Positions 29,989 through 51,115 of a stretch of 64,000 nt of DNA are shown piece by piece (position 1 is the first letter of the stretch; each line of letters opens with the position of its first letter). The DNA comes from Patescibacteria group bacterium (lineage in GTDB: Bacteria > Patescibacteriota > Microgenomatia > UBA1400 > Chisholmbacteraceae), in NCBI GenBank assembly GCA_022564195.1, contig JADFLW010000006.1:2474-66473 (forward strand). The letters are read 5' to 3'. The notes under the pieces are model-generated. The model searched no databases, had not been told where the DNA came from, and worked only from the letters and a program-made list of their open reading frames with translations. Position numbers and translations under genes: made by a program.

Positions 29989-30402
29989 ATGCGCAGGCTT
30001 CCTCCTCAATCAGCACGAAGGATCATGTGCTATTGGCTTTTTTTTATTGCCTTTCTGTTTACCCCGTGGCGCAGCTTTACGGGGCTATTAGCCGCCCCGG
30101 TCCACGCGATAGATATAGGCGACGTCTTCTTTGGAGGTCAGCTCAAAACCCGAACCCTTGGAGATTTCATCACTCCCATAGTCAGAGCCTCAATCGTCAT
30201 CGCCGGCGTCATCGCCTTTCTCCTCTTCTTAGGAGGCGGGATAACCATGATCTCCTCTGCCGGAAATCCCCAGGCACAAGAGAAAGGAAAAGGCGCCGTT
30301 ACTGCCGGCGTCACCGGACTCGTGCTGGTCATCAGTGCCTACTGGATCGTCCAAATTATCGAGGTGCTCACCGGAATCAACCTCTTGAATCCGAGTCTCT
30401 AA
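29989..30402 (+). CDS. TrbC/VirB2-like pilin (paralog 3)
   Basis: Signal peptide; ISSAGNPQAQEKGKGAVTAGVTGLVLVISAYWIVQII. Confidence 0.6.
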   Translation: MRRLPPQSARRIMCYWLFFIAFLFTPWRSFTGLLAAPVHAIDIGDVFFGGQLKTRTLGDFITPIVRASIVIAGVIAFLLFLGGGITMISSAGNPQAQEKGKGAVTAGVTGLVLVISAYWIVQIIEVLTGINLLNPSL

Positions 30403-30450
30403 AATGCTCAAATGAATATACCAATACAATAAAGTGCGCCCTTCAAAACC

Positions 30451-30786
30451 ATGATGATATTCGACCTCATCGGAACCATCGGCGATCCACTCACGGGTCC
30501 ATTAGCGGGCGGAGCGGGTAAAGCAACACTGCTCCTCTCCGGATTCATTCGCCTGCTCACCATCGCCGCCGGGATCTATATGATGATCAACTTCATCCTC
30601 GGCGGCATCGGTTACATCAGCTCCGCCGGAAACCCGGAAGGCATCCAACACGCCTGGCAAAGGATCTATCGGTCCATGATCGGCCTCGCCATCGTCATCC
30701 TCTCGTTTGCCTTTGCCGGCCTCCTCGGCCTCCTTCTCTACGGAAATGCAACCGCAATATTGAGTCCGGAGATCACTGGTCCATGA
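30451..30786 (+). CDS. TrbC/VirB2-like pilin (paralog 4)
   Basis: ISSAGNPEGIQHAWQRIYRSMIGLAIVILSFAF between hydrophobic helices. Confidence 0.55.
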   Translation: MMIFDLIGTIGDPLTGPLAGGAGKATLLLSGFIRLLTIAAGIYMMINFILGGIGYISSAGNPEGIQHAWQRIYRSMIGLAIVILSFAFAGLLGLLLYGNATAILSPEITGP

Positions 30787-31139
30787 AGTTCAACATCGTA
30801 CAGAAGGCTTTTGCAATAAACTTTGAACCGATAACCGGCATCGGTGGGCTTCAAGTTGGTGACGATCCGGGAGGAACGCTGGAAAACTTCTTCACCATCC
30901 TCTTAGGCTTCTTCACCATCATCGGCGGCATCATGTTTCTCATCTATTTCGTCCTCGGAGCCCTATCCTGGATCTCCTCAACGGGCGATAGGGAGAAAGT
31001 TGCCAAAGCCCAACGCTACATGTCAAACGCCCTGATCGGACTGATCTTCGTCGTCCTTGCCTGGGCCTTCACCGGAATCATCGGTGCCACCCTGGGATTT
31101 TCAATACTCGATCTGGCAACCAACATTGGAAACCTATAA
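30783..31139 (+). CDS. TrbC/VirB2-like pilin (paralog 5)
   Basis: ISSTGDREKVAKAQRYMSNALIGLIFVVLAWAF. Start overlaps the upstream stop (ATGA). Confidence 0.55.
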   Translation: MKFNIVQKAFAINFEPITGIGGLQVGDDPGGTLENFFTILLGFFTIIGGIMFLIYFVLGALSWISSTGDREKVAKAQRYMSNALIGLIFVVLAWAFTGIIGATLGFSILDLATNIGNL

Positions 31140-31150
31140 AGGCGAGAATA

Positions 31151-31561
31151 ATGGAAACAATCCTTCATCATCCAGGCTTCAAAATAAAGGTATCCGTGCT
31201 ACTGGGTGTGATTTCTCTACTTATGGCTAGTCCCGCCAACGCCCAAATCACCAACCCCGTCCTTCCTACTCTCGGCTCCGGAGACCCTGGAGGCGCACTC
31301 GCCACAATCATTGCCAATCTCTGGAAGAGCGGTGTCATCATTGGCGGTATCCTCTTCATCCTCTACTTCGTCTGGGGAGCGATAAGCTGGCTGACCGCCG
31401 GAGGAGACAAAGCCAGGCTTGAAGAAGCAAGGCAAAAAATCTCCAATGCCCTCATCGGTCTTGTCATTCTTGCCGCATCGCTCGCCATTATTGAGCTTTT
31501 AGGAGGACTCTTAAATATTCCATTCTTGGAAACGTTATCATTCACATTCCCAACACCATGA
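31151..31561 (+). CDS. TrbC/VirB2-like pilin (paralog 6)
   Basis: Signal peptide ...SPANA; LTAGGDKARLEEARQKISNALIGLVILAASLAII. Confidence 0.6.
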   Translation: METILHHPGFKIKVSVLLGVISLLMASPANAQITNPVLPTLGSGDPGGALATIIANLWKSGVIIGGILFILYFVWGAISWLTAGGDKARLEEARQKISNALIGLVILAASLAIIELLGGLLNIPFLETLSFTFPTP

Positions 31562-31574
31562 CCGTGGACAAAAC

Positions 31575-31922
31575 ATGATATTCCCAACCTTTCTGCAGAC
31601 AACCGTCGATATCGGCTCCCAGCTCGGAACATTCTTCAGCATCACCGATGTCGGCTCACTCATAAGCGGCATCTTGGGCGCTGCTCTTCTCTTTGCTGCC
31701 ATCGCCTTCGTCCTCTACTTCGTCTGGGGTGCGCTGGGCTGGTTGACGGCAGGAGGCGACAAAACCCAACTCGAGCTTGCAAAGCAGCGCATCACCAACG
31801 CCTTCATCGGTCTTGTACTCGTCGCCGTTGCCTGGGCTATTTATCTTTTAGTCATCCACGTCCTTGGGCTCGGCGGGGTAATCAAGCTTACTAGCGTCCC
31901 TGCACCTCCTGCCCATAGTTGA
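31575..31922 (+). CDS. TrbC/VirB2-like pilin (paralog 7)
   Basis: LTAGGDKTQLELAKQRITNAFIGLVLVAVAWAIYLL. Confidence 0.6.
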   Translation: MIFPTFLQTTVDIGSQLGTFFSITDVGSLISGILGAALLFAAIAFVLYFVWGALGWLTAGGDKTQLELAKQRITNAFIGLVLVAVAWAIYLLVIHVLGLGGVIKLTSVPAPPAHS

Positions 31923-32030
31923 CAGCATTACAATACTCATCAATAATAGATGATAGATCGTCAAAATCATTCCAACAGTAGGAGGAGAAATTAACCGCAA
32001 CCAATCGGTAAGGTGAGAGGGGGTGAATAT

Positions 32031-32369
32031 ATGCTGACACTATTTGGTGTTGCCTACGCCCAAGGATCAATAACCGTAGCCCAACCTGTAGGATTCCAAA
32101 TCACAGACATCGGTACGCTCATCTCCGGAGCAATTGGCGCCGCCTTCATCATTGCGGGGCTATTGGTATTCGCCTATCTCGTTTGGGGAGGAATCCAGTG
32201 GATCACCGCTGGAGGAGACAAGGCTAACCTCGAGGCGGCAAGAGGACGCATATCCAATGCCCTCGTTGGTTTGGCGATCGTCGCTGCCGCATTCGCGGTG
32301 ATGCTCCTAGTCGAATTCGTCTTTGGATTCACGATCCTTGGAGGCGTCGAACTCCCAATATTCTATTAA
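32031..32369 (+). CDS. TrbC/VirB2-like pilin (paralog 8)
   Basis: ATG 32031 is preceded by a GGTGAGAGGGGG SD. ITAGGDKANLEAARGRISNALVGLAIVAAAFAVMLL. Confidence 0.6.
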   Translation: MLTLFGVAYAQGSITVAQPVGFQITDIGTLISGAIGAAFIIAGLLVFAYLVWGGIQWITAGGDKANLEAARGRISNALVGLAIVAAAFAVMLLVEFVFGFTILGGVELPIFY

Positions 32370-32418
32370 AGGGGAAGAGTGATGGTTCTAGTCGCGTACG
32401 CGACTAGAAAGTCTTCAA

Positions 32419-32835
32419 ATGGAAAACAGCAGTGGAAACTGGCAAGAGAGGCTTCGCCTCTGGATCAAAAAGCAGTTCTCACACTTGATTGCTGCTTTTG
32501 CTGTGATCATAGGATTCCTCGGCAATCCTATCAAAGCATACGCTGCGTTAGTCGGCGAAGAGCCAACGGAATTCTCCGCTTTAGAACCAATTGTCGAAAA
32601 TCTTATTAAAGCCGCCGTCCCAATCGCGGGTGTCGTGCTGTTTGGGATGCTGGTCTTCGGCGGCATCCAATACCTCACAAGCGGCGGTGATCCCGAAGGC
32701 ATGCAGAAAGCCAAAAGCACCCTCACCTACGCCATCATCGGCATCGTGCTTCTGGTTCTAACTTGGTTCGTGCTTCTATTTATCAAAACATTCACTGGTG
32801 TAGACGTCACCACCTTCACCATCCCCTCCCCATAA
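32419..32835 (+). CDS. TrbC/VirB2-like pilin (paralog 9)
   Basis: LTSGGDPEGMQKAKSTLTYAIIGIVLLVLTWFVLLF. Confidence 0.55.
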   Translation: MENSSGNWQERLRLWIKKQFSHLIAAFAVIIGFLGNPIKAYAALVGEEPTEFSALEPIVENLIKAAVPIAGVVLFGMLVFGGIQYLTSGGDPEGMQKAKSTLTYAIIGIVLLVLTWFVLLFIKTFTGVDVTTFTIPSP

Positions 32836-32895
32836 ACACAAAACGCTAAACCCTCTACCCTATTGCCTGATTCTTGTGCTACTATTATTTTTGAA

Positions 32896-34617
32896 ATGGG
32901 AAAACTTCGGTACTGGCTGCCCACGCTGCTCTTGGCAATTTTGGTGCTGATGCTGCCGCGTCCAGCCCGCGCCCTACCGATCACAAGCTGTGTCACCAAT
33001 CCCAACGAACCCCATCCCCTGCGCCCCTACCCCGGAGAGATCTGCGGACCTGAAGCCGCACGCACCATCGACCAAACCGATACCCCTTACTGCGCCATGC
33101 GGCCCTGGGCTGTTGGGAACATCGAATACCTCAGAAATCAGCAAGACTGCCCAGCAGGAGATCCCATTTTTCCCTGCATCATCAGAACCCTCTCCGGCAT
33201 CTACTCGATCGACCTTACCGAGTACGAACTTCCTCTCGTTTCGGTGAATCGACCGGGCTTTGAGTCCTTGACGTTCTTCAACCGTGCCCAAGAGCACCTG
33301 GCTGACTACCTCGAGGGCCGCACCTACTACGAAGGGGTTGCCGAGCCAGAGCCATCAAACAGCCCTATCGACTGGATTCCGGTCTGGAACCGGATCGGAG
33401 TGCTGCGCAAGCTCACCTCAACCCTGCCAAAACATGAGGGGAATATGATCCAGGATGCACTGAAGATCCAGATGATTGAGGGCGCCGGAGTAAGCCATCA
33501 CAACTACATCGTCGGCTACATCTCAGGCGGCGAACCAGCCGACTGGGGAACCGGGACCCCCATCCGATTAAGAGACTTCATCGGAAACTTTCCTCCGGAG
33601 TACATCTGCAACACAATCGCGGATCCGGTAGCAAGGAAGCTGTGCAACGAAGCCTGGCAAGCAGACTTTAATATATGGAAGGAAACCATCTACGGCAAGC
33701 TCTGGCCCTATGTTCCACTGGTCACCCGCGAGGATGCCAAAGGGTTTGTCCGCGTCTTTCCCGAACCGGGACAACCATTCACCACCCAAACCGCCCCGGT
33801 CAGCATCCCTCACCTGCCGCGCCTCCATGCCGTAAGCGGCATGCTCCAGCAGATGCTCGAATCGAACCTGATCGAAGAAGAGCCGGCGGAAGAAGCCGGA
33901 CCGTACGAAGGCGTCGCCTGCCCCGCCGGGCCCTGGTGGACATCGGGAACCTACGGCGCCTGCGGCAGCACCAGCTTCTGCCAGGTCGGTGCCTGTTCCG
34001 ATCCCGGATCCATGCCGTCGCTCTCCGGCGGTTCCGGCTCCTGCCGAGTCAACTGCTCAAGCCTTGCCGGTAACAGCGTTCCTCCGCTGATGCGGGACAT
34101 CATCGGAACCGCTGGCCAGGAGTATGGCGTCCCAGGCGCCCTCATCATCGCCATCATGTTCGCCGAAGGTGGGTTTGAGCGGCAATCCTGCTACGGCGGC
34201 GCTTGGAGCAACGCGCTCGTTGAAGAGTCAAGCGCTTGTGGAGGCCAAGTACCCAACTGCTGCAACTGCAACGTCAGCTCCTCCGGGGCTCGCGGCACCT
34301 TCCAATGGATTCCACGCTGGTTTGAAGCGTACAGAGATGCAGCCCAAGCCGTCGACCCTTCCCGAGCCGGAGATCCCTGCAACTTCCTGGATGCCGCCTT
34401 CGCCACTGCCAAGAAACTCTCCCTGGAACACGGCGGTGCCGCAAGCTATTCTCCGCCCTCCTGCGATGGCATCACCTACAACACCTTGGCACCCAGAAAA
34501 ACCAGCTGCGGCGACTGGAATAGCCAAGACATCGCGACCGCCACTCGCCAATACGTCGGCGCCTGCAATGTCGACTACCAGCAAAATGTGTTTTCCGCCT
34601 ACGACAAATGCAAGTAG
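32896..34617 (+). CDS. secreted Cys-rich protein with C-terminal VirB1/SLT-like lytic transglycosylase motifs
   Basis: Signal peptide. The C-terminal region AIMFAEGGFE ... SSGARGTFQWIP resembles the SLT catalytic-Glu and GxxQ motifs. Many paired cysteines. Confidence 0.45.
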   Translation: MGKLRYWLPTLLLAILVLMLPRPARALPITSCVTNPNEPHPLRPYPGEICGPEAARTIDQTDTPYCAMRPWAVGNIEYLRNQQDCPAGDPIFPCIIRTLSGIYSIDLTEYELPLVSVNRPGFESLTFFNRAQEHLADYLEGRTYYEGVAEPEPSNSPIDWIPVWNRIGVLRKLTSTLPKHEGNMIQDALKIQMIEGAGVSHHNYIVGYISGGEPADWGTGTPIRLRDFIGNFPPEYICNTIADPVARKLCNEAWQADFNIWKETIYGKLWPYVPLVTREDAKGFVRVFPEPGQPFTTQTAPVSIPHLPRLHAVSGMLQQMLESNLIEEEPAEEAGPYEGVACPAGPWWTSGTYGACGSTSFCQVGACSDPGSMPSLSGGSGSCRVNCSSLAGNSVPPLMRDIIGTAGQEYGVPGALIIAIMFAEGGFERQSCYGGAWSNALVEESSACGGQVPNCCNCNVSSSGARGTFQWIPRWFEAYRDAAQAVDPSRAGDPCNFLDAAFATAKKLSLEHGGAASYSPPSCDGITYNTLAPRKTSCGDWNSQDIATATRQYVGACNVDYQQNVFSAYDKCK

Positions 34618-34633
34618 TCGTGAATCATGAATA

Positions 34634-35644
34634 ATGAATAAAAAATTATCAAAACTACTACTGGTACCAGCTCTAGTCATTGCCTCAGTGCTGCTGTTCC
34701 ATGCCCCAGCAGCACAAGCCCAAGACTTCAGCGTCTTTTACAACGCCTGCACCGTCGGTCCCATCTGCGACCTCTGTGAGCAGTACTACTCCCCCGGCGA
34801 CTATGTGTTGGACGATGTCATCAGTTTCCCCGCAGAAGAGGAAAAGATCATCCCCCATCCCTATTATGAGGAATACAAAGACTTCACTTGTAAAGCCGAC
34901 GAGTGCTTAGTCGGCGTCTCCGACACCACGTATTGTGTCTCACCGACTGACGATGAGATACCAGCAATACGCCTTTGTACTGCGATCACACTCCCCAATT
35001 GCAATCTCAACGAGTGTCAAGACAGTCCGTCCAGCTCTCCCTATTGCGATATCGGCGCCGTAAGATTCTGCGACTCCAGCATATACGCACTCGGAGGTTG
35101 GCATTTCTGCACAACGTCGGGCTGGGACCCCACCGCCGTCGGTGGGACGAGTGGCGACTGCATTGCCGAGCCACCCCACCCAATCATGGGTTGCGATAAC
35201 GGAACCGTGGGCGTACCAGGTTCCGGCAATTGGATTGACCTTCCATCAAGGCCGAATGAACAGGGCCGCTGTGAAGAAATGCTCGAGGAGATACGGGTCG
35301 CCTTCACCCCAGGCTATGTCAAAACCTACACGCCATATCTTTTTGATATCTGGCAAAACACCGTCAAGCACACCGCGGCCATCTTCACACTCTTCCGCAC
35401 CCAAATCGGCGCCGAGATCTTCGACTGGCCTGGGGAATCAACCATCGCCTACGACTTCACCAACGATCTTGCCGAAGCCGGCTTTCCACCGACGATCCGG
35501 CCCGGATGGGATGCTAAAATCTACTTCCGCTATTTGGGTTACATCCACTGCGCCAAGGAAAATCTCCTACAAAAGCTCTCCTCCAGACTTGCAGACACGC
35601 CATACGTCTACTACGACGCCCGCTGCGATGCAGAACTTTGGTGA
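34634..35644 (+). CDS. secreted Cys-rich hypothetical protein
   Basis: Signal peptide ...APAAQA, about 24 cysteines, no recognisable catalytic motif. Confidence 0.5.
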   Translation: MNKKLSKLLLVPALVIASVLLFHAPAAQAQDFSVFYNACTVGPICDLCEQYYSPGDYVLDDVISFPAEEEKIIPHPYYEEYKDFTCKADECLVGVSDTTYCVSPTDDEIPAIRLCTAITLPNCNLNECQDSPSSSPYCDIGAVRFCDSSIYALGGWHFCTTSGWDPTAVGGTSGDCIAEPPHPIMGCDNGTVGVPGSGNWIDLPSRPNEQGRCEEMLEEIRVAFTPGYVKTYTPYLFDIWQNTVKHTAAIFTLFRTQIGAEIFDWPGESTIAYDFTNDLAEAGFPPTIRPGWDAKIYFRYLGYIHCAKENLLQKLSSRLADTPYVYYDARCDAELW

Positions 35645-35654
35645 TACATCTCAA

Positions 35655-35984
35655 ATGTCAAAACGCAAAAGTCAAAACCACAACTCAAATGTAAAAACCG
35701 ATCTCAAAATTAGATCCTACCAATTCTCTCTGAGAATCATCAGGCTAGTAAGTAGGCTTCCAAGCACAAGAATTTTCTGGGTAATAGGAGACCAATTACT
35801 TAGAAACAGCACCAGCATAGGCGCAAATATCGTAGAAACAAAATCCTCAAGCTCCAAAAAAGAATTCATTAAGTTTTACGAAATATCCCTGAAGAGCACG
35901 AACGAAACAAAGTATTGGCTCTGCCTCCTTCGGGACTCTAATCTTGAAGGCATAGATCAAAAAACAGTAAAGGAAGCTCTATAG
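35655..35984 (+). CDS. four-helix-bundle protein (23S rRNA intervening-sequence protein family)
   Basis: YQFSLRIIRLVSRLP...RNSTSIGANIVE...YEISLKSTNETKYWLCLLRDSNL matches the IVS-protein pattern (SIPSNIAEG-like, LLAKRLGY-like). Only the 3' 109 codons of track ORF 35142-35984 are taken as real. Confidence 0.55.
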   Translation: MSKRKSQNHNSNVKTDLKIRSYQFSLRIIRLVSRLPSTRIFWVIGDQLLRNSTSIGANIVETKSSSSKKEFIKFYEISLKSTNETKYWLCLLRDSNLEGIDQKTVKEAL

Positions 35985-36104
35985 GAAGCGGTTGAGATCA
36001 ACAACATGTTAGGTTCTAGTCTGTTAACGATGAAAGGAAAAAGATAGTTCTCTGGATTTTAGTTGTAGTTTTGAGACTTGAGATTTGAGTTTTGACTTTT
36101 AATT

Positions 36105-37601: not shown

Positions 37602-37611
37602 AACAGCTTCT

Positions 37612-41387: not shown

Positions 41388-41690
41388 TCACGCCACAGCC
41401 GCCTTCCGCTTTCGAGGTCGTCCACCACGCTTTCCATACTCTCTGGGGCTTTTGAGGAAAGACTTATACTTCTCAACTGCTCTTCCCGTCGTTAACCACC
41501 GCCACGGATAACCACGACCATCTTTGCGCACCTTCCAACCCTTAACACGTCCGGTGTTCAACAGACGACGAATCCTGTGCGTAGAAAGCCCAACGCGCTT
41601 TGCAACTTCCGAAATTGGAAGAACCCCTCGCTCCTTCTCAGACTTCTTTGCAATCTCCGGTGGTCGTGGTGCATACTCCCCTTCTACCAT
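41388..41690 (-). CDS. excisionase/AlpA-family helix-turn-helix DNA-binding protein
   Basis: LPISEVAKRVGLSTHRIRRLLNTGRVKGWKV...W matches the Xis-type HTH pattern. Basic C-terminal tail. Confidence 0.5.
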   Translation of the reverse strand: MVEGEYAPRPPEIAKKSEKERGVLPISEVAKRVGLSTHRIRRLLNTGRVKGWKVRKDGRGYPWRWLTTGRAVEKYKSFLKSPREYGKRGGRPRKRKAAVA

Positions 41691-44678: not shown

Positions 44679-44703
44679 TGGAAAAACGCAGTATACTACA
44701 CCA

Positions 44704-45783
44704 ATGATGGATGTGCCCGGCCGACTCACAATCAAAAGGTTTCTCACGGGAAAAACGCTCCTGTTTCTCTTGCTTGCAACCATCATCACCCTCGTTATCG
44801 GAGTACGTTTGGTTAAACGGCAACAGGAGCAACGCCCTGGAATCAAACCTACATTCGGAGAGCTGCTCGCCCCCCTGCCAGCCTATAAATCTCCTCACCC
44901 GAACCCGCAGACGTCCAAGATAGAGCTCCCCCCAGCGCTCAATCTCCCTGAAACGGCCGTGGTCTATCGTCAAGGGATCCGTTCGATAGAAGATCAGCGG
45001 GCGCGCCAAATTGGACAAGCGTTGAGGATGGGCGTCCAGCCCCAAATATTCGGAAACACCATGGTCTTCCAACAAGAAGCGAAGTTTTTAAGCCTCAACC
45101 TCAAAACCGGAGATGTCTCCTACTCCGAACCGCTTCCCGAGTACCTCAAGACCCTCAGTCAACCGGCGCTGGAAGATTATGCGCTTTTATTAATCAAACA
45201 ATTGTTCCCGGACTCGACATTTTGGGAAAATCCGGTGATGCAAACCCAGCACCTCGCCACACGGGAACCAGAGCCCAGCCCCCACGGAGACCTCCAACTT
45301 GTCCCTCCTGAAAGTGCCCAACTCGCCATCGTCGAGGCTTTCCCAACAATCAATGGCACAAGAATCGTCGGACCAAAAGATCCCTTCGGTCAACGCGGAA
45401 TAGTGACCGCAAAATTCCTCAAAAACGACGGCCTCATCTCGCTCAACGGCGCTGTTGTCGCCATAGATATCTCTAACACCGGTACCTACCCCTTGAAATC
45501 CCTCCCTCTCGCACAACAAGAGATCGGCGCCGGAAGAGCCCTGTTTACCACCGCCATTCCAGCAGGGACATCCTACGGACAAGTCGAGCCCGGAGCAGAC
45601 ATTACTCCAACCAGCGCAGAATACACCGAAGCAGAGGTGGTCTACTACTACAACCCTGATCCCAACACATTCCTGCAGCCCATGTACCTGTTTACCGGCA
45701 AAACAACCCTCACCGATGGCCGACCAGCAACCATCATCGCCATCCTTCCCGCCATTGACCCCCAATTCCTGAAACAACCATAA
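44704..45783 (+). CDS. N-terminally anchored hypothetical protein (possible VirB8/VirB10-like bitopic component, speculative)
   Basis: Single N-terminal TM helix and large extracytoplasmic domain. Placement between the M23 protein and the PrgI-like gene. Confidence 0.4.
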   Translation: MMDVPGRLTIKRFLTGKTLLFLLLATIITLVIGVRLVKRQQEQRPGIKPTFGELLAPLPAYKSPHPNPQTSKIELPPALNLPETAVVYRQGIRSIEDQRARQIGQALRMGVQPQIFGNTMVFQQEAKFLSLNLKTGDVSYSEPLPEYLKTLSQPALEDYALLLIKQLFPDSTFWENPVMQTQHLATREPEPSPHGDLQLVPPESAQLAIVEAFPTINGTRIVGPKDPFGQRGIVTAKFLKNDGLISLNGAVVAIDISNTGTYPLKSLPLAQQEIGAGRALFTTAIPAGTSYGQVEPGADITPTSAEYTEAEVVYYYNPDPNTFLQPMYLFTGKTTLTDGRPATIIAILPAIDPQFLKQP

Positions 45784-45927
45784 AAAGCAGTACCTAGCCC
45801 TAGCCCTGTCCTCTGCTCCCCTGTTATAATGACCGCGATAGCAATTTGTCCCTTTTGAAACTCGCGAAGCACGAGGAAACAAGAATTCTTACTAAACCCT
45901 ATACCCTAAACGCTAAACGCTAATTTA

Positions 45928-47019
45928 ATGGAACAACACCCCGTCCCCCAACAAATCTCAGCCTACCACTTCCGCTTGGTCGGCGACATGACCATTAAGC
46001 AGTTCATCGAGCTGTCAGCCGGCGTCGTCGTCGGCTGGATCATCTACTCACTCCCCATCCATCCCATCATCCGCTGGCCATTGGTCATCTCTTCGGTCTT
46101 TGCCGGAGTCACCTTCGCCTTCCTTCCCCTTGAAGAGCGCCCCCTAGACCGCTGGCTCCTAGCCTTCATTAAAGCTGTCTACTCACCCACGCAATACATC
46201 TGGAAGAAATCCGTCATCATTCCGGAATTCTTCGAAGAGATAAAACTGAGAAAAGTGGCAGCCAAGGAAGAACGGGTAGGGGTTGATCGCAAGAAGCTGG
46301 AAGAGTATCTCGAAACCCTGCCCGCCCCAGGGCCTGAAACCTCAATCGATAAAAAGGAGAACCAGTTTATCTCCGACATCATGAAGCTCTACATAGAGGT
46401 CCAACCAAAGGTTGTCACCCCAGTCAAGCCAAAAAAGGCCATCCTTGAGGAGGAACGGATTCCAAAAGTCGCGGTCAGGAAACTCAAGACCCCCCCGCTT
46501 GATCCACGCGCCATCATGCGAGGCGAAATTATTATGCCGAAACGCCCAAAGCCAAGAACCATCCAAGTCCCTGAAATTGAACCGACTCCAGTGGAAAAGC
46601 TGTCCCCGTCACCCGAAACCCCGCCTCCACAGGAGCAAGCGCCCACCGAAACTGTCGCGTCTTCCGGCATCGATCCAACAGGAGCAATAAAGATTCCTTC
46701 CATGAAACAGGTTGCCGAAGCAACCATGGCTCCTGGACTACCGATGCCAGCCCCGCCAACCGAACCAAACGTCGTCGCCGGGATGGTCGTGGACGACAAG
46801 GGCAATATCGTCGAAAACGCAATCGTGACAATTAAAGACCATGAAGGCAATGTCGCTCGCGCCCAAAAAACCAACAAAATCGGCCAATTCTTCATTGCCA
46901 CACCTTTAGAAAACGGGGACTACGAAATCGAAGTTGAGAAAGAAGCCTTAAGCTTTGATATAATTAAAATAAAGCTCGAAGGAAAGCTCGTTCTACCCAT
47001 CGAAATCCGAGCCAAATAA
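45928..47019 (+). CDS. PrgI/VirB3-like membrane protein fused to a C-terminal carboxypeptidase-regulatory-like beta-sandwich domain
   Basis: N-terminus MTIKQFIELSAGVVVGWIIYSL...WPLVISSVFAGVTFAFLPLEERPLDRWLLAFIK resembles PrgI family/VirB3. C-terminus GMVVDDKGNIVENAIVTIKDHEGN...GDYEIEVEKE. Confidence 0.4.
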   Translation: MEQHPVPQQISAYHFRLVGDMTIKQFIELSAGVVVGWIIYSLPIHPIIRWPLVISSVFAGVTFAFLPLEERPLDRWLLAFIKAVYSPTQYIWKKSVIIPEFFEEIKLRKVAAKEERVGVDRKKLEEYLETLPAPGPETSIDKKENQFISDIMKLYIEVQPKVVTPVKPKKAILEEERIPKVAVRKLKTPPLDPRAIMRGEIIMPKRPKPRTIQVPEIEPTPVEKLSPSPETPPPQEQAPTETVASSGIDPTGAIKIPSMKQVAEATMAPGLPMPAPPTEPNVVAGMVVDDKGNIVENAIVTIKDHEGNVARAQKTNKIGQFFIATPLENGDYEIEVEKEALSFDIIKIKLEGKLVLPIEIRAK

Positions 47020-47023
47020 CCAA

Positions 47024-48013
47024 ATGCCCACCCCAATCCAAGCCACCACCCAGGAACACCTGGACATCGAGGACATCGTCGAAAATATCATCCTCTTAAA
47101 AGATGGCTCTGCCGCAATGGTCCTCACCACGACAGCCGTCAATTTCGGACTACTTTCCGAGTCTGAGCAAGACGCCACTATCTACGCCTACGCTGCCCTC
47201 TTAAATTCGCTAACCTTTCCAATCCAAATCCTCATCCGCAGCCACCGCAAGGATATTTCAGGATACGAAAAGCTTCTTGCGGAACAAGAAGTGCGCGCAA
47301 TACAGCCCCAAAACAAAGAGCGAATCAGAAAATATAGAGAATTCATCCAAGAAACGGTCAGGGAAAGGAATGTGTTGGATAAAAAGTTTTACATCACCAT
47401 CCCATTCTCCGTCATGGAATTAGGGGTCACCAAATCGGCAACCGCCCTTGTGAAGGGCCGTCGCCGTGGCCTCCCCTTCCCCAAAGACTACATCATAAAG
47501 CGCGCCAAAATGGCTCTGGATCCAAAGTCCGATCATCTGGTGCACCAGCTCGCTCGCTTGGGCCTGAAGGCCAGACAGCTCACCACCAAAGAACTCATTC
47601 AACTCATGTTTGAGATCTACAACCCCGATAGTGCTCAAGGACAAATTCTCGCATCTCCAAAGGAATACGAAACCCCGCTGGTCAAAGCAGCAGTCGCCTT
47701 CCAGGAGAACCCACAAATCACAGGACCAGAGGAAGGGCCACCAACAACCCCACCTCCCCCAGTTGATCCGCCGCCAGCTGCGACTCCCTCCACTGCGCAA
47801 CCTCAACTGCAACCAAAACCAAACGAAACGCAAACGACCGAATCAACTGACCAAGAAGCCCAAGCGGCAATAAACGCCGCAGTGGGCGCCCAAGCACCAG
47901 AAGCTCAACCGAGCCCACCAGAAGCTCAACCGAGCCCACCAGAAGCTCAACCGAGCCCACCAGAAGCTCAACCGAGCCCACCAGAAGCTCAACCGAAATC
48001 GGAGAAAAGGTAA
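47024..48013 (+). CDS. T4SS protein resembling the N-terminal domain of Gram-positive-type VirB4 (PrgJ-like); ends in a PEAQPSP x4 repeat
   Basis: DIVENIILLKDGSAAMVLTTTAVNFGLLSESEQDATIYAYAALLNSLTFPIQILIRS (recalled similarity, not searched). Stop TAA overlaps the ATG of the VirB4 ATPase ORF (TAATG). Confidence 0.45.
   Translation: MPTPIQATTQEHLDIEDIVENIILLKDGSAAMVLTTTAVNFGLLSESEQDATIYAYAALLNSLTFPIQILIRSHRKDISGYEKLLAEQEVRAIQPQNKERIRKYREFIQETVRERNVLDKKFYITIPFSVMELGVTKSATALVKGRRRGLPFPKDYIIKRAKMALDPKSDHLVHQLARLGLKARQLTTKELIQLMFEIYNPDSAQGQILASPKEYETPLVKAAVAFQENPQITGPEEGPPTTPPPPVDPPPAATPSTAQPQLQPKPNETQTTESTDQEAQAAINAAVGAQAPEAQPSPPEAQPSPPEAQPSPPEAQPSPPEAQPKSEKR
47897..47996. repeat. 21-bp tandem repeat (ccagaagctcaaccgagccca) x 4.8, in frame (PEAQPSP)
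   Basis: Perfect copies at the 3' end of ORF 47024-48013. Confidence 0.9.
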
Positions 48014-49962
48014 TGCCGCCACTCATCGATACCATCAAAAGCAAGTTAGCCGGAGGAAAACCACAACCGACTTCATCCACCGCTCAGCCTGGTCCGGCGC
48101 AACAGCCCTCACCCGCAGCGGCCGAAGAAAAAGCGCCAACAAAGGCTGACGGGCCGGCCGAGAAACTTGGAGCCGGGATGGTCTCAATCCAAGACATCAT
48201 CGCCCCAGAATCAATTGATGTCGACTTCAATCATTTAAAAATTGGCAACGCCTACTTCCGCACCCTCTTTGTGGCAGGCTACCCACGATACGTCAGCGCC
48301 AACTGGCTCGCCCCCCTCATCAACTTCGAACACTCACTTGAAGTTTCAATGTTCATCTACCCGGTTGAGGGCCGAGAAGTGCTCGATGAGTTACGGCGCA
48401 AAATAGGGGAAATGGAAGCAGAAGTCGACTCCGACTTCAAGCGCGGCCACATTGCAAGCGTTGATACCGAAATTAAACTTGCAGACGCCAAATCCCTCCA
48501 GCAAGAGCTTGCAAAAGGCGCTGAGCGCTTCTTCCAGTTTGGCCTCTACATCACCATAACGGCCGACTCACTGGATGAGCTAAACTCAACAACCAAGAAA
48601 GTACAGTCCCTCTTAGGGTCGCTCCTCATCGTCTCCAAAGCCTCCACCCTCCAAATGGAGGACGGACTCAAAGCAACGCTCCCCCTAGGACAAGACCACC
48701 TCATGATCACCCGCAACATGGACACCACCTCATTGGCAACAACATTTCCCTTTGCCTCATCGGAGTTAAGTGCCAACGAAGGAATCATGTACGGCATCAA
48801 CGAACACAACGACTCATTAATCATCTTTGACCGCTTCACCCTTGAGAACGCCAACATGGTGATCTTCGGTAAATCAGGATCCGGAAAGAGCTTCTTCGAA
48901 AAACTAGAAATCATGCGCTCCTTGATGTTCGGAACCGAAGTGATCGTCATCGACCCAGAAAAAGAGTACCAACGCATGTGCGAGGCCCTGCAAGGAACCT
49001 ACATCGACTTTCACTTCAATGCCGAGGCAAAAATCAATCCCTTTGACCTCTCAATGATCTACGAAGAAGGGGAAAATGAGCTGGGCTTAAAGATTCTCTC
49101 GCTCCATGGCCTGTTAAAAATCATGCTCGGAGAAGTAAGTCCCAACGAGGAGGCAATTCTCGATCGAGCCCTCATCGCCACCTATAAAGCGAGGGGCATC
49201 ACCCCAAACCCAGACACGCAAAAAAACGAACCGCCCCTCATGGAGGATCTGTACAAAACGCTCATTGGGATGGAAGAAGAGGTGTCAAAGGGCTTGTCCA
49301 ACCGGCTAGAAAAGTACGTCAAGGGCTCCCTGAGAAGCTTTTTCGATCAGCAGTCAAACGTGGACATCAAAAATCCGTTCACGGTCTTCTCCCTCAAAGA
49401 AGTGGAAGATGAAACACGCCCAATTGTCATGTACATGGTGCTCGATTACATCTGGACAAAGGTGAAACGCGACATGAAAAAACGACTTGTCGTCGTCGAC
49501 GAGGCGTGGTACCTCATGAAAAACGAAGACTCTGCAACTTTCCTCTACTCCATCGCCAAGCGCGCCCGAAAATATTTCATGGGACTAACCACCATCACAC
49601 AAGACGTCGAAGACTTCTTAAATACCGACTACGGTCACGCCATCGTCACCAACTCCTCAATCCAAGTTCTTTTCAAACAATCATCAGCCGCAATCGAGCG
49701 TCTTGCGGAGGCGTTCTACCTCTCGGAAGGAGAAAAACACCTGCTGCTCGCAGCAGACGTTGGGGAAGGGCTATTCTTTGCCGGACAAAACCACGTCGCA
49801 ATGCGCGTCGTCGCCTCCTCAGAAGAGCACCGCCTCATCACCACAAAACCAGAAGAAATCCTTGATATTGAGAGAGAAAAGAAAAAGCGAGAACAACGAC
49901 GAGGGCCTAACGCTCCACAGCCCGACCAAGCGCAACAAACAAAATCTCACCCATCAGCCTAG
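48013..49962 (+). CDS. virB4: VirB4/TrbE-family type IV secretion ATPase
   Basis: IGNAYFRTLFVAGYPRYVSANWL N-domain. Walker A GKSGSGKS, Walker B RLVVVDEAWYL. C-terminal VirB4 motifs. Confidence 0.9.
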   Translation: MPPLIDTIKSKLAGGKPQPTSSTAQPGPAQQPSPAAAEEKAPTKADGPAEKLGAGMVSIQDIIAPESIDVDFNHLKIGNAYFRTLFVAGYPRYVSANWLAPLINFEHSLEVSMFIYPVEGREVLDELRRKIGEMEAEVDSDFKRGHIASVDTEIKLADAKSLQQELAKGAERFFQFGLYITITADSLDELNSTTKKVQSLLGSLLIVSKASTLQMEDGLKATLPLGQDHLMITRNMDTTSLATTFPFASSELSANEGIMYGINEHNDSLIIFDRFTLENANMVIFGKSGSGKSFFEKLEIMRSLMFGTEVIVIDPEKEYQRMCEALQGTYIDFHFNAEAKINPFDLSMIYEEGENELGLKILSLHGLLKIMLGEVSPNEEAILDRALIATYKARGITPNPDTQKNEPPLMEDLYKTLIGMEEEVSKGLSNRLEKYVKGSLRSFFDQQSNVDIKNPFTVFSLKEVEDETRPIVMYMVLDYIWTKVKRDMKKRLVVVDEAWYLMKNEDSATFLYSIAKRARKYFMGLTTITQDVEDFLNTDYGHAIVTNSSIQVLFKQSSAAIERLAEAFYLSEGEKHLLLAADVGEGLFFAGQNHVAMRVVASSEEHRLITTKPEEILDIEREKKKREQRRGPNAPQPDQAQQTKSHPSA

Positions 49963-49966
49963 CGCT

Positions 49967-51115
49967 CTATTTTTGAACGCGCACGGGCATGATGACGTGC
50001 AAAAACTCTTCACTCTTTCCGAGTAGCCGAAAAACGCCCGGATCCAAGCTTCCATTCAAAACAAATTGAAGCTTTTCTGAAGGAAAAATCGAAAAAAGCT
50101 CCAAAAGGTACCGGCTATTAAAGGCGGTCTCCCCTCCCGGGCCCTTGAGGCGAACCTCGACCGCACTCTCGCTTGCACCATAAGACGGGGCATTTGCAGA
50201 AATCGTCAGCCCCCGCTTAGCAAGCTTCCAGTGAACAATGTTAGCGCTGTCACGAGCAAAAATGCTGGCTGTGCGAACCGCCCGCACCAAAGGCTCCAGC
50301 TCAATCTCTGCCACAGATTCCTCCTTACGAGGTATAACTTGAGAAAAATTAGGAAACGCCCCATCAATAAGCCTTGTTGTCACCTCTCCATCCCCAATCG
50401 AAAAGACAACCAGATTCTGATCAGAGACAAGACCAATCCTCACCTGAGAAGCTCCCAGCTCATCAGCCAATCGATCAACATCAACGAGCGCCCGCGCTGG
50501 AACGATAAGTCCCTCCCCAATGACAGCCTCAACTGCCTTCCTCCACTTCCCCGCTCCCTTTCCAGAAACACCCGCCACCCTCACTAAACTCAAACGATAC
50601 CCATCCGTCGCAACCAACTGTAAATTCCCGTTCTGCTGTTTCCAGAGAACCCCAGAAAGAACGGGTCGCGTCTCGTCCGTTGAGGCAGCAATGGTGACCA
50701 TCTCAACCGCCCGATGCAACTGTTCATAAGAAAGGTCAAACTCCCGCTTACCTGACAGTTTACCGAGTGACGGATATTCAGAGGCAGCAATCCCCATAAG
50801 ACTCGCTGTGTTTCCAGCGCACGTTACAGTCAAAGATTCTCCATCAAGAGCCATCTCAACGGTCGAGGGAGGAAAAGAAGAAACAAGCTCTCCAAAAACC
50901 TTTGCTGGAACAGAAATCGCTCCCCCTTTCTCTATCTTGGCTCCAACCCAAAGCCGCATCCCCAAATTCAAATCAGTTGCCGTCAATTGCAATCTCCCCT
51001 CACGAGCTTCAAGCAACACATTGGAAAGAATAGGCAGTGATGGTTTAGACGGAACTACCCTAGAAACAGAGGCAAGTGATTTAGAAAGCTTTTCTTGCAA
51101 AACTGAGAGTTTCAT
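49967..51115 (-). CDS. dnaN: DNA polymerase III beta subunit (sliding clamp)
   Basis: Three-domain clamp pattern: LQLTATDLNLGMRL ... LQLVATDGYRLSLVRV ... VIMPVRV. Confidence 0.95.
   Translation of the reverse strand: MKLSVLQEKLSKSLASVSRVVPSKPSLPILSNVLLEAREGRLQLTATDLNLGMRLWVGAKIEKGGAISVPAKVFGELVSSFPPSTVEMALDGESLTVTCAGNTASLMGIAASEYPSLGKLSGKREFDLSYEQLHRAVEMVTIAASTDETRPVLSGVLWKQQNGNLQLVATDGYRLSLVRVAGVSGKGAGKWRKAVEAVIGEGLIVPARALVDVDRLADELGASQVRIGLVSDQNLVVFSIGDGEVTTRLIDGAFPNFSQVIPRKEESVAEIELEPLVRAVRTASIFARDSANIVHWKLAKRGLTISANAPSYGASESAVEVRLKGPGGETAFNSRYLLELFSIFPSEKLQFVLNGSLDPGVFRLLGKSEEFLHVIMPVRVQK

What the first reader, a model, noticed from the sequence alone, without database searches (positions are those of the whole stretch)
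29989..50000. Type IV secretion-like locus beside the replication origin: nine pilin paralogs, separate SLT and M23 hydrolases, a split VirB4, and no relaxase or coupling protein in the window
The locus carries a VirB4 ATPase (Walker A and B motifs present). Other T4SS-like parts are a PrgI/VirB3-like protein, a VirB6-like polytopic protein, a VirB1-like SLT protein, a giant M23 peptidase and seven tandem TrbC/VirB2-like pilin genes. Two more pilins lie 5 kb upstream. No VirD4, relaxase or VirB9/B10/B11 is recognisable in the window. The last gene sits 4 bp from dnaN and oriC, so the locus is chromosomal-core rather than on an obvious island. This composition fits a non-conjugative T4SS-derived surface/pilus or DNA/effector apparatus of the kind suspected in episymbiotic CPR bacteria. 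The content here is unusual in having a nine-member pilin family, split lytic enzymes and a large orphan gene. It is the best candidate for a poorly described system in the window.
Basis: partly seen in the sequence, partly recalled or inferred. Interest (0 to 1): 0.8.

Follow-up and report, generated by a model that had tools for sequence, protein, structure and literature searches.

The report
Patescibacteria type IV secretion locus
This is the chromosomal, origin-proximal type IV secretion/pilus locus that is typical of ultra-small CPR (Patescibacteria, class Microgenomatia) bacteria; the kind was described in 2023-2025, so the locus is real and biologically important but not new, and what it transports is still unknown.

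Summary
Window 29989-49962 encodes seven tandem VirB2-like pilins, and two more lie at 24508-25667. It also encodes a VirB6-like polytopic protein, a membrane-anchored M23 peptidase, a PrgI/VirB3-like protein, a TrsD-like protein and a CD1110-type VirB4 ATPase. VirB4 ends 4 bp from dnaN and about 1.3 kb from a DnaA-box cluster. No relaxase or coupling protein lies in the 64 kb.

The organism is a Chisholmbacteria-like Microgenomatia bacterium. The same gene order recurs in about 80 loci from many Microgenomatia species. The system class has been published (Wang 2023, Cell; Quinonero-Coronel 2025, Microb Genom), including pilin arrays of 2-11 genes, TrsD plus VirB4, no relaxase, and dnaA/dnaN proximity.

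The "split VirB4" is the TrsD/VirB4 pair that is standard for these systems. The "orphan" 1186-aa gene has a positional counterpart in 53 of 55 loci. SLT is only weakly supported. The VirB8 candidate has a YycI-like fold instead.

Details I did not find in the 2025 survey:
- The pilin types keep a conserved order in 39 of 42 arrays.
- A consensus promoter lies just before the most conserved pilin.
- A divergent ECF sigma gene adjoins the array in 28 of 46 loci.
- A giant, fast-evolving reverse-strand gene with no family match is positionally conserved.

The parts
24508..25269 (+). u1: signal peptide, Cys-rich ectodomain and a C-terminal T4SS-pilin module. Candidate minor or adhesin pilin.
   Evidence: PF18895 scores 23.3 bits, below the cut-off. 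It has an N-terminal and two C-terminal hydrophobic segments. Its best cross-genome hit is the equivalent large pilin beside uppS in L003, 47% identity.
25281..25667 (+). u2: VirB2-like pilin, a p1-like paralogue.
   Evidence: PF18895 scores 36.8 bits. It is 40% identical to p1 and 53% identical to L004_u2. The pilin pair beside uppS recurs in at least 10 loci.
29306..29923 (-). ECF-type sigma factor, divergent from pilin p1 across a 65-bp spacer. Inferred regulator of the pilin operon.
   Evidence: Sigma70_r2, Sigma70_r4_2 and Sigma70_ECF all match. A divergent sigma gene adjoins the first pilin in 28 of 46 complete arrays. Identity to L001-L005 is 39-73%.
28711..29297 (-). Two small membrane proteins (78 aa and 116 aa) downstream of the sigma gene. 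A role as anti-sigma or partner proteins is a guess.
   Evidence: Both have predicted TM segments. Neither hits Pfam. Both are conserved in L001; the 78-aa protein is also conserved in L002, and the 116-aa protein matches L005 only weakly at 30% identity.
29989..30402 (+). Pilin p1.
   Evidence: PF18895 scores 36.6 bits. Orthologues occupy array position 1.
30451..30786 (+). Pilin p2.
   Evidence: PF18895 scores 20.1 bits, below the cut-off. Clear position-2 orthologues are 39-64% identical.
30783..31139 (+). Pilin p3, overlapping p2 by 4 nt.
   Evidence: PF18895 scores 38.1 bits.
31151..31561 (+). Pilin p4, with a signal peptide.
   Evidence: PF18895 scores 35.9 bits.
31575..31922 (+). Pilin p5.
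   Evidence: PF18895 scores 34.5 bits.
31919..31947 (+). Consensus sigma-70-type promoter-like site (TTGACA-17-AATAAT) in the spacer before p6.
   Evidence: It matches 11 of 12 positions. A TTGACA -35 box lies in the same spacer in L001-L005, with a -10-like hexamer in most. Such a motif was found in 22 of 42 arrays at this position, in 2 at the neighbouring spacer and in none elsewhere.
32013..32369 (+). Pilin p6, the candidate major pilin. The likely true start is the ATG at 32031, which follows a GGAGG-like RBS.
   Evidence: PF18895 scores 31.8 bits. It is the most conserved pilin, 52-74% identical to its orthologues. The spacer sequence is shown.
32419..32835 (+). Pilin p7. The last pilin is p7-type in 42 of 42 arrays.
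   Evidence: PF18895 scores 55.4 bits.
32863..34617 (+). Secreted two-module protein. The C-terminal module (about residues 377-584) is Cys-rich and lysozyme/SLT-like; peptidoglycan lytic activity is inferred.
   Evidence: There is a signal-anchor segment at residues 22-40. For the isolated domain, SLT_2 gives E 0.002 and SLT gives E 0.029, both below threshold. E-G-G is invariant and the G-x-F of a GxxGPF-like motif is invariant. No PDB sequence match was found. The modules shuffle between genomes.
34634..35644 (+). Secreted Cys-rich protein of unknown function. In L001 it is fused to the N-terminal module of the preceding protein.
   Evidence: Signal peptide predicted. No Pfam or NCBIfam hit. 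The fusion is seen.
36105..37601 (+). VirB6-like polytopic membrane protein.
   Evidence: It has at least 6 hydrophobic segments. NCBIfam MMCAP2_0566 conjugal-transfer family matches at E 2e-4. Four of 61 homologues hit PF04610 TrbL/VirB6. The AF2 model has pLDDT 79. The four best Foldseek PDB hits are all TrwI/VirB6 chains, E 6e-3 and probability 1.0 for the top hit.
37612..41172 (-). Giant (1186 aa) K/E-rich protein with no TM segment, signal peptide or Walker motif. Conserved in position and fast-evolving; function unknown.
   Evidence: No Pfam, NCBIfam or PDB match, either alone or as a 22-member profile. Only 14 cluster representatives were found among 1.8 billion. A reverse ORF of at least 600 aa abuts the VirB6-like gene in 53 of 55 loci. 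An iterated profile links 22 of 54 positional counterparts with no off-target hits. It is 31% and 28% identical to relatives whose VirB6-like proteins are 64% and 56% identical.
41388..41690 (-). Small HTH protein, divergent from the M23 operon. Putative regulator.
   Evidence: Several weak HTH families match. It is conserved in L001 and L002 at 51-52% identity.
41838..44678 (+). 946-aa protein: N-terminal region without a signal peptide, a glycine-zipper TM block and a C-terminal M23 peptidase. Inferred cell-wall hydrolase of the apparatus.
   Evidence: Peptidase_M23 scores 46.1 bits and Gly-zipper also matches. TM segments lie at residues 423-652. M23 proteins hold the same position in related loci.
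44704..45783 (+). Bitopic membrane protein with a YycI/YycH-like ectodomain. It is not demonstrably VirB8.
45928..47019 (+). PrgI/VirB3-like membrane protein with a C-terminal CarboxypepD_reg-like beta-sandwich.
   Evidence: PrgI scores 31.1 bits against a cut-off of 27; CarboxypepD_reg scores 29.7 bits. Relatives have the same architecture.
47024..48013 (+). TrsD-like protein, a homologue of the VirB4 N-terminal region, with a Pro-rich repeat tail. Its stop overlaps the VirB4 start (TAATG).
   Evidence: It matches N-terminal positions of VirB4 models: CD1110 positions 2-121 and VirB4_plasma positions 107-281. NF041427 TrsD matches at E 1e-4. The L003 orthologue carries PF26593 TraC-like. The junction is shown and the repeat.
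48013..49962 (+). VirB4 ATPase of the CD1110/MPF_FATA type.
   Evidence: Microgenomatia VirB4 proteins are 65-90% identical to it.
49967..52741 (-). Boundary and context: dnaN (49967-51115), the DnaA-box cluster (51251-51292) and dnaA (51362-52741).
   Evidence: Translations. DnaA boxes. GC skew.

Best explanation
This is the resident chromosomal type IV secretion system of a Patescibacteria (Microgenomatia, Chisholmbacteria-like) cell. It is the MPF_FATA-derived, pilus-bearing, relaxase-less T4SS found throughout the phylum.

Inferred working model:
- The VirB4 hexameric ATPase is tethered to the membrane by the PrgI/VirB3-like protein and accompanied by the TrsD-like N-domain paralogue. It powers extraction of two-helix VirB2-like pilins from the membrane.
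- The pilins assemble on a VirB6-like platform into an extracellular pilus or tube.
- The membrane-anchored M23 peptidase and the SLT-like secreted protein open the cell's own wall. The YycI-like bitopic protein that follows M23 is an accessory or scaffold.
- The pilins are a fixed, ordered set of ancient paralogue types. p6, which has its own consensus promoter, is the likely major subunit. p1-p5, p7 and u2 would be minor or specialised subunits, and the Cys-rich u1 an adhesin.
- The divergent ECF sigma and the small HTH protein probably regulate the locus.

The apparatus most likely makes the physical conduit or contact with a host cell that the epibiotic lifestyle requires. The cargo and the direction of transport (effector export or import of host macromolecules) are not known.

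Shown here: the gene identities, the order of pilin types, the synteny, the origin-proximal position and the lack of conjugation genes in 64 kb. Inferred: assembly of a pilus, the roles of individual pilins, regulation, and the role in the host relationship.
For: Taxonomy and class: the closest VirB4 and VirB6-like proteins come from Chisholmbacteria and other Microgenomates.

Synteny: the locus is collinear in L001-L005 and across 80 species-level loci. Array size is 6 in 16 and 7 in 20 of 46 complete arrays. A divergent ECF sigma gene adjoins 28 of 46 arrays. A giant reverse ORF is present in 53 of 55 loci.

Old, ordered pilin types: 201 of 218 best cross-genome hits fall at the same array position. 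In 39 of 42 arrays the types follow the window's order, against a shuffle mean of 0.05 and a maximum of 2.

p6: it is the most conserved pilin. A TTGACA promoter-like motif lies specifically before it.

Core chromosomal setting: dnaN, dnaA and DnaA boxes are adjacent. rpoD, dnaG, uppS and isoprenoid genes flank the locus.

No relaxase or T4CP in the window.

Literature: the Saccharibacteria homologue, including its pilin array, is essential for epibiotic growth and lacks a recognisable T4CP and relaxase (PMC10633639). A phylum-wide survey describes the same architecture and origin proximity (PMC12102498). Tubular structures that may be T4SS pili were seen at a parasite-host interface in a 2026 preprint. 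VirB2-like PrgF pili have been reported in Gram-positive MPF_FATA systems.
Against: No experiment exists for any Microgenomatia T4SS, so pilus formation and transport are extrapolated.

A VirB8-like subunit was not found. The candidate has a YycI-like fold.

The VirB6 assignment rests on weak profile hits and low TM-scores; TMt is 0.42. The SLT assignment is below threshold.

The rest of the genome was not available, so a T4CP or relaxase could be encoded elsewhere. Nine related loci do carry a T4CP-like gene inside the locus.

The promoter is a consensus match only.
Confidence: 0.85

Rival explanations
1. An ordinary conjugative element (ICE or integrated plasmid) whose T4SS transfers DNA, with the relaxase and coupling protein encoded outside the window.
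For: The VirB4 belongs to the CD1110/MPF_FATA conjugation family. T4CP-like genes occur inside the locus in 9 related genomes. PMC12102498 found T4CP homologues in many Patescibacteria genomes, usually far from virB4.
Against: No relaxase, T4CP or integrase lies within 64 kb, and no tRNA-flanked island boundary is seen. The locus sits between core genes at the origin. It is collinear across a whole bacterial class, which mobile elements are not. Relaxases were found in only 103 Patescibacteria genomes in the survey.
Confidence: 0.04
2. A T4SS that works in reverse as an uptake machine, like H. pylori ComB or the archaeal Ced system, importing host DNA, RNA or nucleotides for a cell that cannot make them. 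This is a variant of the best explanation that specifies the direction of transport.
For: There is no T4CP or relaxase nearby, as in ComB. VirB4 weakly matches CedB/CedD DNA-import ATPases: 58 bits for CedB, far below its cut-off. Uptake has been proposed for Saccharibacteria (PMC11665869). A 2026 preprint links host-RNA feeding, tubular structures and VirB4.
Against: There is no direct evidence. In S. epibionticum, deleting comEC abolished competence but not viability, so T4SS essentiality does not act through ComEC-dependent uptake. No nuclease or nucleic-acid-binding component was recognised in the locus.
Confidence: 0.25
3. A type IV pilus or Tad-type adhesion pilus rather than a T4SS.
For: There are many small hydrophobic pilin-like genes in tandem, and CPR bacteria are known to rely on type IV pili.
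Against: None of the nine pilins has the G/F-T-L-I-E class III prepilin motif. They match T4SS_pilin, not type IV pilin families. The ATPase is VirB4, not PilB/TadA. No PilC, PilM-Q or prepilin peptidase is in the locus.
Confidence: 0.01
4. The pilin paralogues are a recently amplified, interchangeable repertoire used for antigenic or host-range variation, as suggested by analogy with Bartonella and Anaplasma in PMC12102498.
For: Identity within the array is low, 22-55%, which matches the 25% mean reported.
Against: The paralogue types are old and keep a fixed order. 201 of 218 best cross-genome hits are position-matched. 39 of 42 arrays are collinear. Orthologues (35-74%) are usually more alike than paralogues (22-55%), although the two ranges overlap. 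The pilin genes in the S. epibionticum T4SS cluster are reported as essential.
Confidence: 0.1

Closest known systems
Patescibacteria-clade T4SS (Southlakia epibionticum ML1 SEML1_0006-0019, Wang et al. 2023, PMC10633639; phylum survey by Quinonero-Coronel et al. 2025, PMC12102498)
   Same: MPF_FATA-related VirB4, a TrsD-like gene next to it, PrgI/VirB3, VirB6, peptidase/lysozyme-type hydrolases, a tandem array of divergent VirB2-like pilins, no relaxase or T4CP in the cluster, and a chromosomal position next to dnaA/dnaN.
   Different: This is the Microgenomatia layout. The pilin array and the VirB6-like gene lie 10-18 kb upstream of virB4. A giant reverse-strand gene and an HTH gene interrupt the cluster, and an ECF sigma gene lies upstream. 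The survey reports VirB6 as scarce in Microgenomatia and attributes that to extreme sequence divergence. It mentions neither a sigma factor nor, as far as I read it, the giant gene. No experimental data exist for this class.
Gram-positive MPF_FATA conjugation systems (pGO1 TrsD/TrsE, pIP501, pCF10 PrgF/PrgH/PrgI/PrgJ/PrgK, C. difficile CTn2 CD1110)
   Same: VirB4 of the CD1110 family. A separate TrsD-type N-domain protein. PrgI. Membrane-anchored cell-wall hydrolases. No VirB7, VirB9 or VirB10. A VirB2-like pilin, PrgF, has now been reported for pCF10.
   Different: There is no relaxase, T4CP, oriT or surface adhesin such as PrgB. There are nine pilin paralogues instead of one. The locus is a fixed core-chromosome locus rather than a mobile element. 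The hydrolase domains are on separate proteins. That PrgK combines LytM, SLT and CHAP is my recollection and was not checked here.
Helicobacter pylori ComB DNA-uptake T4SS
   Same: A T4SS without a coupling protein or relaxase that is chromosomal and not used for conjugation (cited in PMC11665869).
   Different: ComB is a diderm VirB-type system with ComB7-10 (my own knowledge). No component specific to DNA uptake was recognised here.
VirB2 paralogue arrays of the Bartonella Trw and Anaplasma T4SSs
   Same: Tandem, divergent virB2 copies in a host-associated bacterium.
   Different: Those arrays are interpreted as lineage-specific amplifications for variation. Here the paralogue types and their order are conserved across a bacterial class.

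Membership tests
Patescibacteria-clade T4SS (MPF_FATA-derived) | VirB4 ATPase of the MPF_FATA/CD1110 type with intact Walker A and B motifs, closest to Patescibacteria VirB4 proteins | tested here: met
   conju_CD1110 scores 410.6 bits against a cut-off of 325. 4ag5 matches at E 1.7e-46. The motifs are shown. All top homologues that carry a source name are from Microgenomates or Patescibacteria, at 65-90% identity. No formal phylogeny was built.
Patescibacteria-clade T4SS (MPF_FATA-derived) | TrsD-like protein (homologue of the VirB4 N-terminal region) encoded next to virB4 | tested here: met
   47024-48013 matches N-terminal positions of VirB4 models and NF041427 TrsD, all below the family cut-offs. 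Its L003 orthologue carries PF26593 TraC-like. Its stop overlaps the virB4 start.
Patescibacteria-clade T4SS (MPF_FATA-derived) | VirB3/PrgI-like membrane protein | tested here: met
   PF12666 scores 31.1 bits against a cut-off of 27.
Patescibacteria-clade T4SS (MPF_FATA-derived) | VirB6-like polytopic channel subunit | tested here: inconclusive
   The query itself has no Pfam hit. Four of 61 homologues hit PF04610. NCBIfam conjugal-transfer family matches at E 2e-4. The top four Foldseek PDB hits are TrwI/VirB6, but with E 6e-3 and TM 0.27-0.42. The PDB profile search found nothing. The evidence leans towards yes.
Patescibacteria-clade T4SS (MPF_FATA-derived) | Tandem array of divergent VirB2-like pilins (PF18895/PF04956) | tested here: met
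   Nine PF18895 hits, seven above the cut-off. All have a two-helix topology. Identity within the window is 22-55%.
Patescibacteria-clade T4SS (MPF_FATA-derived) | Cell-wall hydrolase(s) in the cluster | tested here: met
   The M23 domain scores 46.1 bits. The second, SLT-like domain is only sub-threshold.
Patescibacteria-clade T4SS (MPF_FATA-derived) | No relaxase and no coupling protein in the cluster | tested here: met
   Searches cover the window only. The rest of the genome is not testable with these tools.
Patescibacteria-clade T4SS (MPF_FATA-derived) | Chromosomal, origin-proximal position (dnaA/dnaN neighbourhood) | tested here: met
   dnaN lies 4 bp away and DnaA boxes are at 51251-51292. 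The same adjacency is seen in L003, L031 and L052.
Patescibacteria-clade T4SS (MPF_FATA-derived) | Required for epibiotic growth on a host | not testable with these tools
   Shown only for S. epibionticum.
Canonical minimal Gram-positive T4SS (VirB1/3/4/6/8 plus VirD4) | VirB8-like bitopic protein with an NTF2-like domain | tested here: not met
Conjugative element (ICE or plasmid T4SS) | MOB relaxase, type IV coupling protein and integration/excision functions linked to the T4SS | tested here: not met
   None in the 64 kb. The flanks are core genes. oriT was not tested.
Type IV pilus / Tad pilus | Class III prepilin leader (G/F-T-L-I-E) and a PilB/TadA-type ATPase with a PilC platform | tested here: not met
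   None of the nine pilins has the motif. The ATPase is VirB4.

The most novel reading that the evidence does not exclude
The Microgenomatia T4SS builds a heteromeric pilus or conduit from a fixed, ordered set of seven non-redundant pilin types. p6 is the separately promoted major subunit and the Cys-rich u1 is a tip adhesin. The giant cytoplasmic protein, which is conserved in position, evolves fast and has no recognisable family, is the system's dedicated cargo, effector or cytoplasmic gate. Some lineages encode a T4CP-like gene on the same strand, two housekeeping genes further on. This would point to a host-manipulating or host-tapping machine with a previously unrecognised component family.
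Probability: 0.2. Interest if true: 0.7.

Novelty: new member of a known kind. Interest (0 to 1): 0.4.

Why it matters
Patescibacteria T4SSs are the first T4SSs shown to be essential for the bacterium that carries them, and their cargo is unknown. This locus adds no new kind of system.

Comparing it with about 80 Microgenomatia loci does sharpen what could be tested:
- The pilin paralogue types form a conserved, ordered set, which argues for distinct structural roles rather than variation.
- One pilin, p6, has its own conserved promoter and is a candidate major subunit for structural work.
- The class has a recognisable VirB6-like family, which the published survey reports as scarce in Microgenomatia.
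- An uncharacterised giant protein and an ECF sigma factor are constant companions of the machinery. They are candidates for cargo and regulator.

Tried and rejected

2. Firm SLT identity for the C-terminal domain of 32863-34617. phmmer and a 6-sequence profile against PDB found nothing relevant. Pfam gives only sub-threshold SLT and SLT_2 hits.

3. Sequence-level PDB matches for the TrsD-like protein and for the VirB6-like profile. None was found.

4. Any family for the giant protein. Pfam, NCBIfam, PDB with a 22-sequence profile, and an exhaustive search of 1.8 billion representatives all gave nothing outside close relatives. An iterative profile reached only 22 of 54 positional counterparts, so homology of the remainder is unproven.

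5. The 745-aa unknown ORF (19547-21784) as a hidden coupling protein. It has no Walker motif and no family hit.

6. A Foldseek search against afdb50. The library was unavailable.

7. The island hypothesis. I found no integrase or relaxase, no tRNA at the borders and no sharp compositional break.

Full report
**1. What is in the sequence**

ORF listing and translation give a compact plus-strand gene series from 29989 to 49962. It is interrupted by two minus-strand genes.

Pilins:
- Pfam places nine ORFs in PF18895 (T4SS_pilin). Seven are tandem (29989-32835) and two lie at 24508-25667.
- Seven score above the gathering cut-off and two below it.
- All nine have the two hydrophobic helices of VirB2-type pilins, separated by a short polar loop that is often S/T-x-G-G/N-D/N-P/K.
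- None has a type IV prepilin leader.

VirB4 and its neighbours:
- The last gene (48013-49962) is a VirB4 ATPase. NCBIfam conju_CD1110 scores 410.6 bits against a cut-off of 325. PDB 4ag5 matches at E 1.7e-46. Walker A is GKSGSGKS and Walker B is LVVVDE.
- The gene before it (47024-48013) overlaps the VirB4 start (TAATG). It matches only the N-terminal parts of full-length VirB4 models (CD1110 positions 2-121) and, weakly, the TrsD/TraD family. VirB4 itself covers positions 185-734.
- 45928-47019 is PrgI/VirB3-like, with a C-terminal CarboxypepD_reg-like domain.

Other proteins:
- 41838-44678 has a long N-terminal region, a glycine-zipper transmembrane block and a C-terminal M23 peptidase.
- 36105-37601 is polytopic. 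It has a weak NCBIfam hit to a mycoplasma conjugal-transfer membrane family. Four of 61 homologues hit TrbL/VirB6. In an AF2 model of pLDDT 79, the four best PDB matches are all TrwI/VirB6 chains of the R388 T4SS, though with modest scores. I regard VirB6-like as probable.
- The SLT assignment for 32863-34617 rests on sub-threshold Pfam hits to its Cys-rich C-terminal domain (E 0.002 and 0.029). That domain has an invariant E-G-G, and the G-x-F of a GxxGPF-like motif is also invariant. PDB sequence searches gave nothing.

**2. Position in the genome**

- VirB4 ends 4 bp from the convergent dnaN gene.
- Two perfect DnaA boxes and one with a single mismatch lie at 51251-51292, between dnaN and dnaA.
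- The cumulative GC skew is lowest from about 52 to 59 kb.
- The flanks are core genes: rpoD, dnaG, pgi, a tRNA cluster, tmRNA, uppS, isopentenyl-phosphate kinase, a Nudix/IDI-like gene, yidC and polysaccharide genes.
- No ORF of at least 360 aa in the 64 kb has a relaxase or coupling-protein domain.
- A T4CP-like protein taken from a related locus finds only VirB4 in the window, and only weakly.

**3. Whose genome, and how typical is the locus**

The nearest named VirB4 and VirB6-like proteins are from Candidatus Chisholmbacteria and other Microgenomates. VirB4 is 65-90% identical across many of them.

Contigs carrying VirB6-like homologues show the same order throughout:
- ECF sigma (minus strand)
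- seven pilins
- one or two large secreted proteins
- the VirB6-like gene
- a giant minus-strand gene of 1131-1575 aa
- a small minus-strand gene in some loci
- an M23 protein
- a protein of about 320-360 aa
- PrgI-CarboxypepD_reg
- TrsD
- dnaN

A profile scan of one genome per species found 536 relatives of the VirB6-like protein, and 80 loci were kept. They come from Chisholm-, Beckwith-, Collier-, Gottesman-, Curtiss-, Shapiro-, Woese- and Roizmanbacteria.

On these loci:
- Complete arrays hold 6 pilins in 16 cases, 7 in 20, and 8-9 in 5, out of 46.
- A divergent ECF sigma gene adjoins the first pilin in 28 of 46 arrays.
- A minus-strand ORF of at least 600 aa abuts the VirB6-like gene in 53 of 55 loci.
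- The upstream pilin pair next to uppS recurs in at least 10 loci.

**4. What the literature already says**

PMC12102498 (Microb Genom 2025) surveyed Patescibacteria T4SSs and reports:
- a distinct VirB4 clade related to MPF_FATA;
- TrsD as the most frequent companion of VirB4;
- PrgI/VirB3;
- VirB2-like pilins near virB4, including 441 arrays of 2-11 genes, especially in Microgenomatia and Saccharimonadia;
- very few relaxases;
- T4CP homologues usually far from virB4;
- proximity of virB4 to dnaA/dnaN in Microgenomatia and Paceibacteria.

Wang et al. 2023 (PMC10633639) showed by Tn-seq that the Saccharibacteria T4SS cluster SEML1_0006-0019, including its pilins, is essential for epibiotic growth. 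That cluster lacks a recognisable coupling protein and relaxase.

Reviews call its role "completely unknown". They consider effector delivery or uptake of host material. A 2026 preprint reports tubular structures, possibly T4SS pili, at a parasite-host interface. A 2025 preprint reports that pCF10 PrgF is a VirB2-like pilin essential for conjugation. Pilins may therefore be native to MPF_FATA systems.

**5. What this analysis adds**

(a) Ordered pilin types. The pilin paralogues are old and ordered.
- Among six genomes, 201 of 218 best cross-genome hits fall at the same array position.
- When the pilins of 42 arrays are assigned to the window's types, 39 arrays are collinear. The shuffle mean is 0.05 and the maximum is 2.
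- The first pilin is p1/u2-type in 40 arrays and the last is p7-type in 42.
- Orthologues are 35-74% identical and paralogues 22-55%.
- This argues against a recently amplified, interchangeable repertoire and for distinct roles.

(b) A promoter before p6. p6 is the most conserved pilin. The spacer before it carries TTGACA-17-AATAAT. A TTGACA -35 box lies in the same spacer in L001-L005, with a -10-like hexamer in most. Such a motif was found in 22 of 42 arrays at that position, in 2 at the neighbouring spacer and in none elsewhere. I infer that p6 is the major subunit.

(c) A fast-evolving giant gene.
- The giant minus-strand protein has no TM segment, signal peptide, Walker motif or family match.
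- Only 14 cluster representatives exist among 1.8 billion.
- It is 31% and 28% identical to the proteins of relatives whose VirB6-like proteins are 64% and 56% identical.
- An iterated profile links 22 of 54 positional counterparts without any off-target hit.
- The M23 N-terminal region and the YycI-like protein also evolve fast.

(d) A T4CP-like gene in related loci. Nine Gottesmanbacteria-type loci carry a T4CP-like gene of about 728 aa on the minus strand between the giant gene and PrgI. It hits TrwB_AAD_bind at or above the cut-off and TraG-D_C at the cut-off. In L044, two housekeeping genes separate it from the giant gene. The window has only the 100-aa HTH gene in that position.

**6. 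Mechanism**

The best-supported reading is the resident Patescibacteria T4SS.

Shown:
- the identities of the parts;
- the conserved order of pilin types;
- class-wide synteny;
- the origin-proximal core position;
- the absence of conjugative DNA-processing genes in 64 kb.

Inferred from established T4SS biology (my own knowledge of the R388 and pKM101 structural work):
- VirB4 with VirB3 and VirB6 extracts and polymerises VirB2-type pilins.
- The hydrolases breach the cell wall.
- The apparatus forms a pilus or conduit to a host cell.

The direction of transport and the cargo are open. I give about 0.25 to an uptake role, as a variant of the main model. The other rivals are:
- Conjugative element: about 0.04.
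- Type IV or Tad pilus: about 0.01.
- Variation repertoire for the pilins: about 0.1. This concerns only the pilins and could hold together with the main reading.

**7. Verdict**

The locus is real, correctly recognised, biologically important and typical. The kind is already described, so I classify it as a new member of a known kind. Interest is moderate (0.4). That score reflects the open question of what these essential T4SSs do and the testable details listed above, not any novelty in the locus itself.

Noticed in passing
window 35655-35984 (+): A gene of about 109 aa for a 23S-rRNA-intervening-sequence (four-helix-bundle) protein sits inside the T4SS operon, between the Cys-rich secreted protein and the VirB6-like gene. 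It hits PF05635 at 66 bits. L001 has two copies at other positions in the locus (9586-9951 and 15287-15661) and L002 has none. It behaves like a small mobile passenger gene.
   Followed up: partly
window 47895-47996: A perfect 21-bp tandem repeat of 4.9 copies encodes PEAQPSP repeats in the Pro-rich tail of the TrsD-like protein. Perfect copies suggest recent expansion, so the repeat length may vary.
   Followed up: no
L044 16264-18450 (-); also L030, L047, L048, L049, L053, L071, L078, L085: A T4CP-like protein of about 728 aa is encoded inside the T4SS locus of Gottesmanbacteria-type genomes, on the minus strand between the giant gene and PrgI. It hits TrwB_AAD_bind at 28.3 bits (cut-off 20.5) and TraG-D_C at the cut-off, and has Walker A GKTGTGKS. 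In L044, nadE/nadD-like genes separate it from the giant gene. The window has no counterpart.
   Followed up: partly
window 19547-21784 (-): A 745-aa ORF with one TM segment has no Pfam or NCBIfam hit. Its C-terminal half looks like a beta-propeller repeat by eye. It is not part of the T4SS locus.
   Followed up: no
window 25675-29297 and the equivalent regions of L003, L004, L016, L019, L028 and others: The upstream pilin pair is separated from the main array by isoprenoid genes (uppS, isopentenyl-phosphate kinase, Nudix/IDI-like) and by HTH and small membrane-protein genes. The link between the pilin pair and uppS is itself conserved across Microgenomatia.
   Followed up: partly
window 25899-25932: A 7-bp tandem repeat (AATTTCG, 4.9 copies, 100% match) lies inside the uppS coding region and encodes the duplicated SKFEIRN peptide.
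   Followed up: no
L009, L010, L013 and many others (record titles): Many species-representative contigs that carry this Microgenomatia-type locus are titled "uncultured Pseudomonadales" or "Gammaproteobacteria", and a few "Bathyarchaeia", "Clostridia" or "Nevskiaceae". These are probably mislabelled MAG records.
   Followed up: no
L003 19993-20934 and 20909-21503; also L031: In some Microgenomatia the TrsD-like gene directly abuts dnaN with no virB4 between them, so virB4 must lie elsewhere. This agrees with the published remark that, in Microgenomatia, VirB3 homologues are mostly not encoded near virB4.
   Followed up: no
window 18522-18933 (-) and 15392-17556 (-): A tmRNA gene and a cluster of six tRNA genes (four Ser, two Arg) lie upstream of the region. 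They are ordinary core features, not island borders.
   Followed up: no
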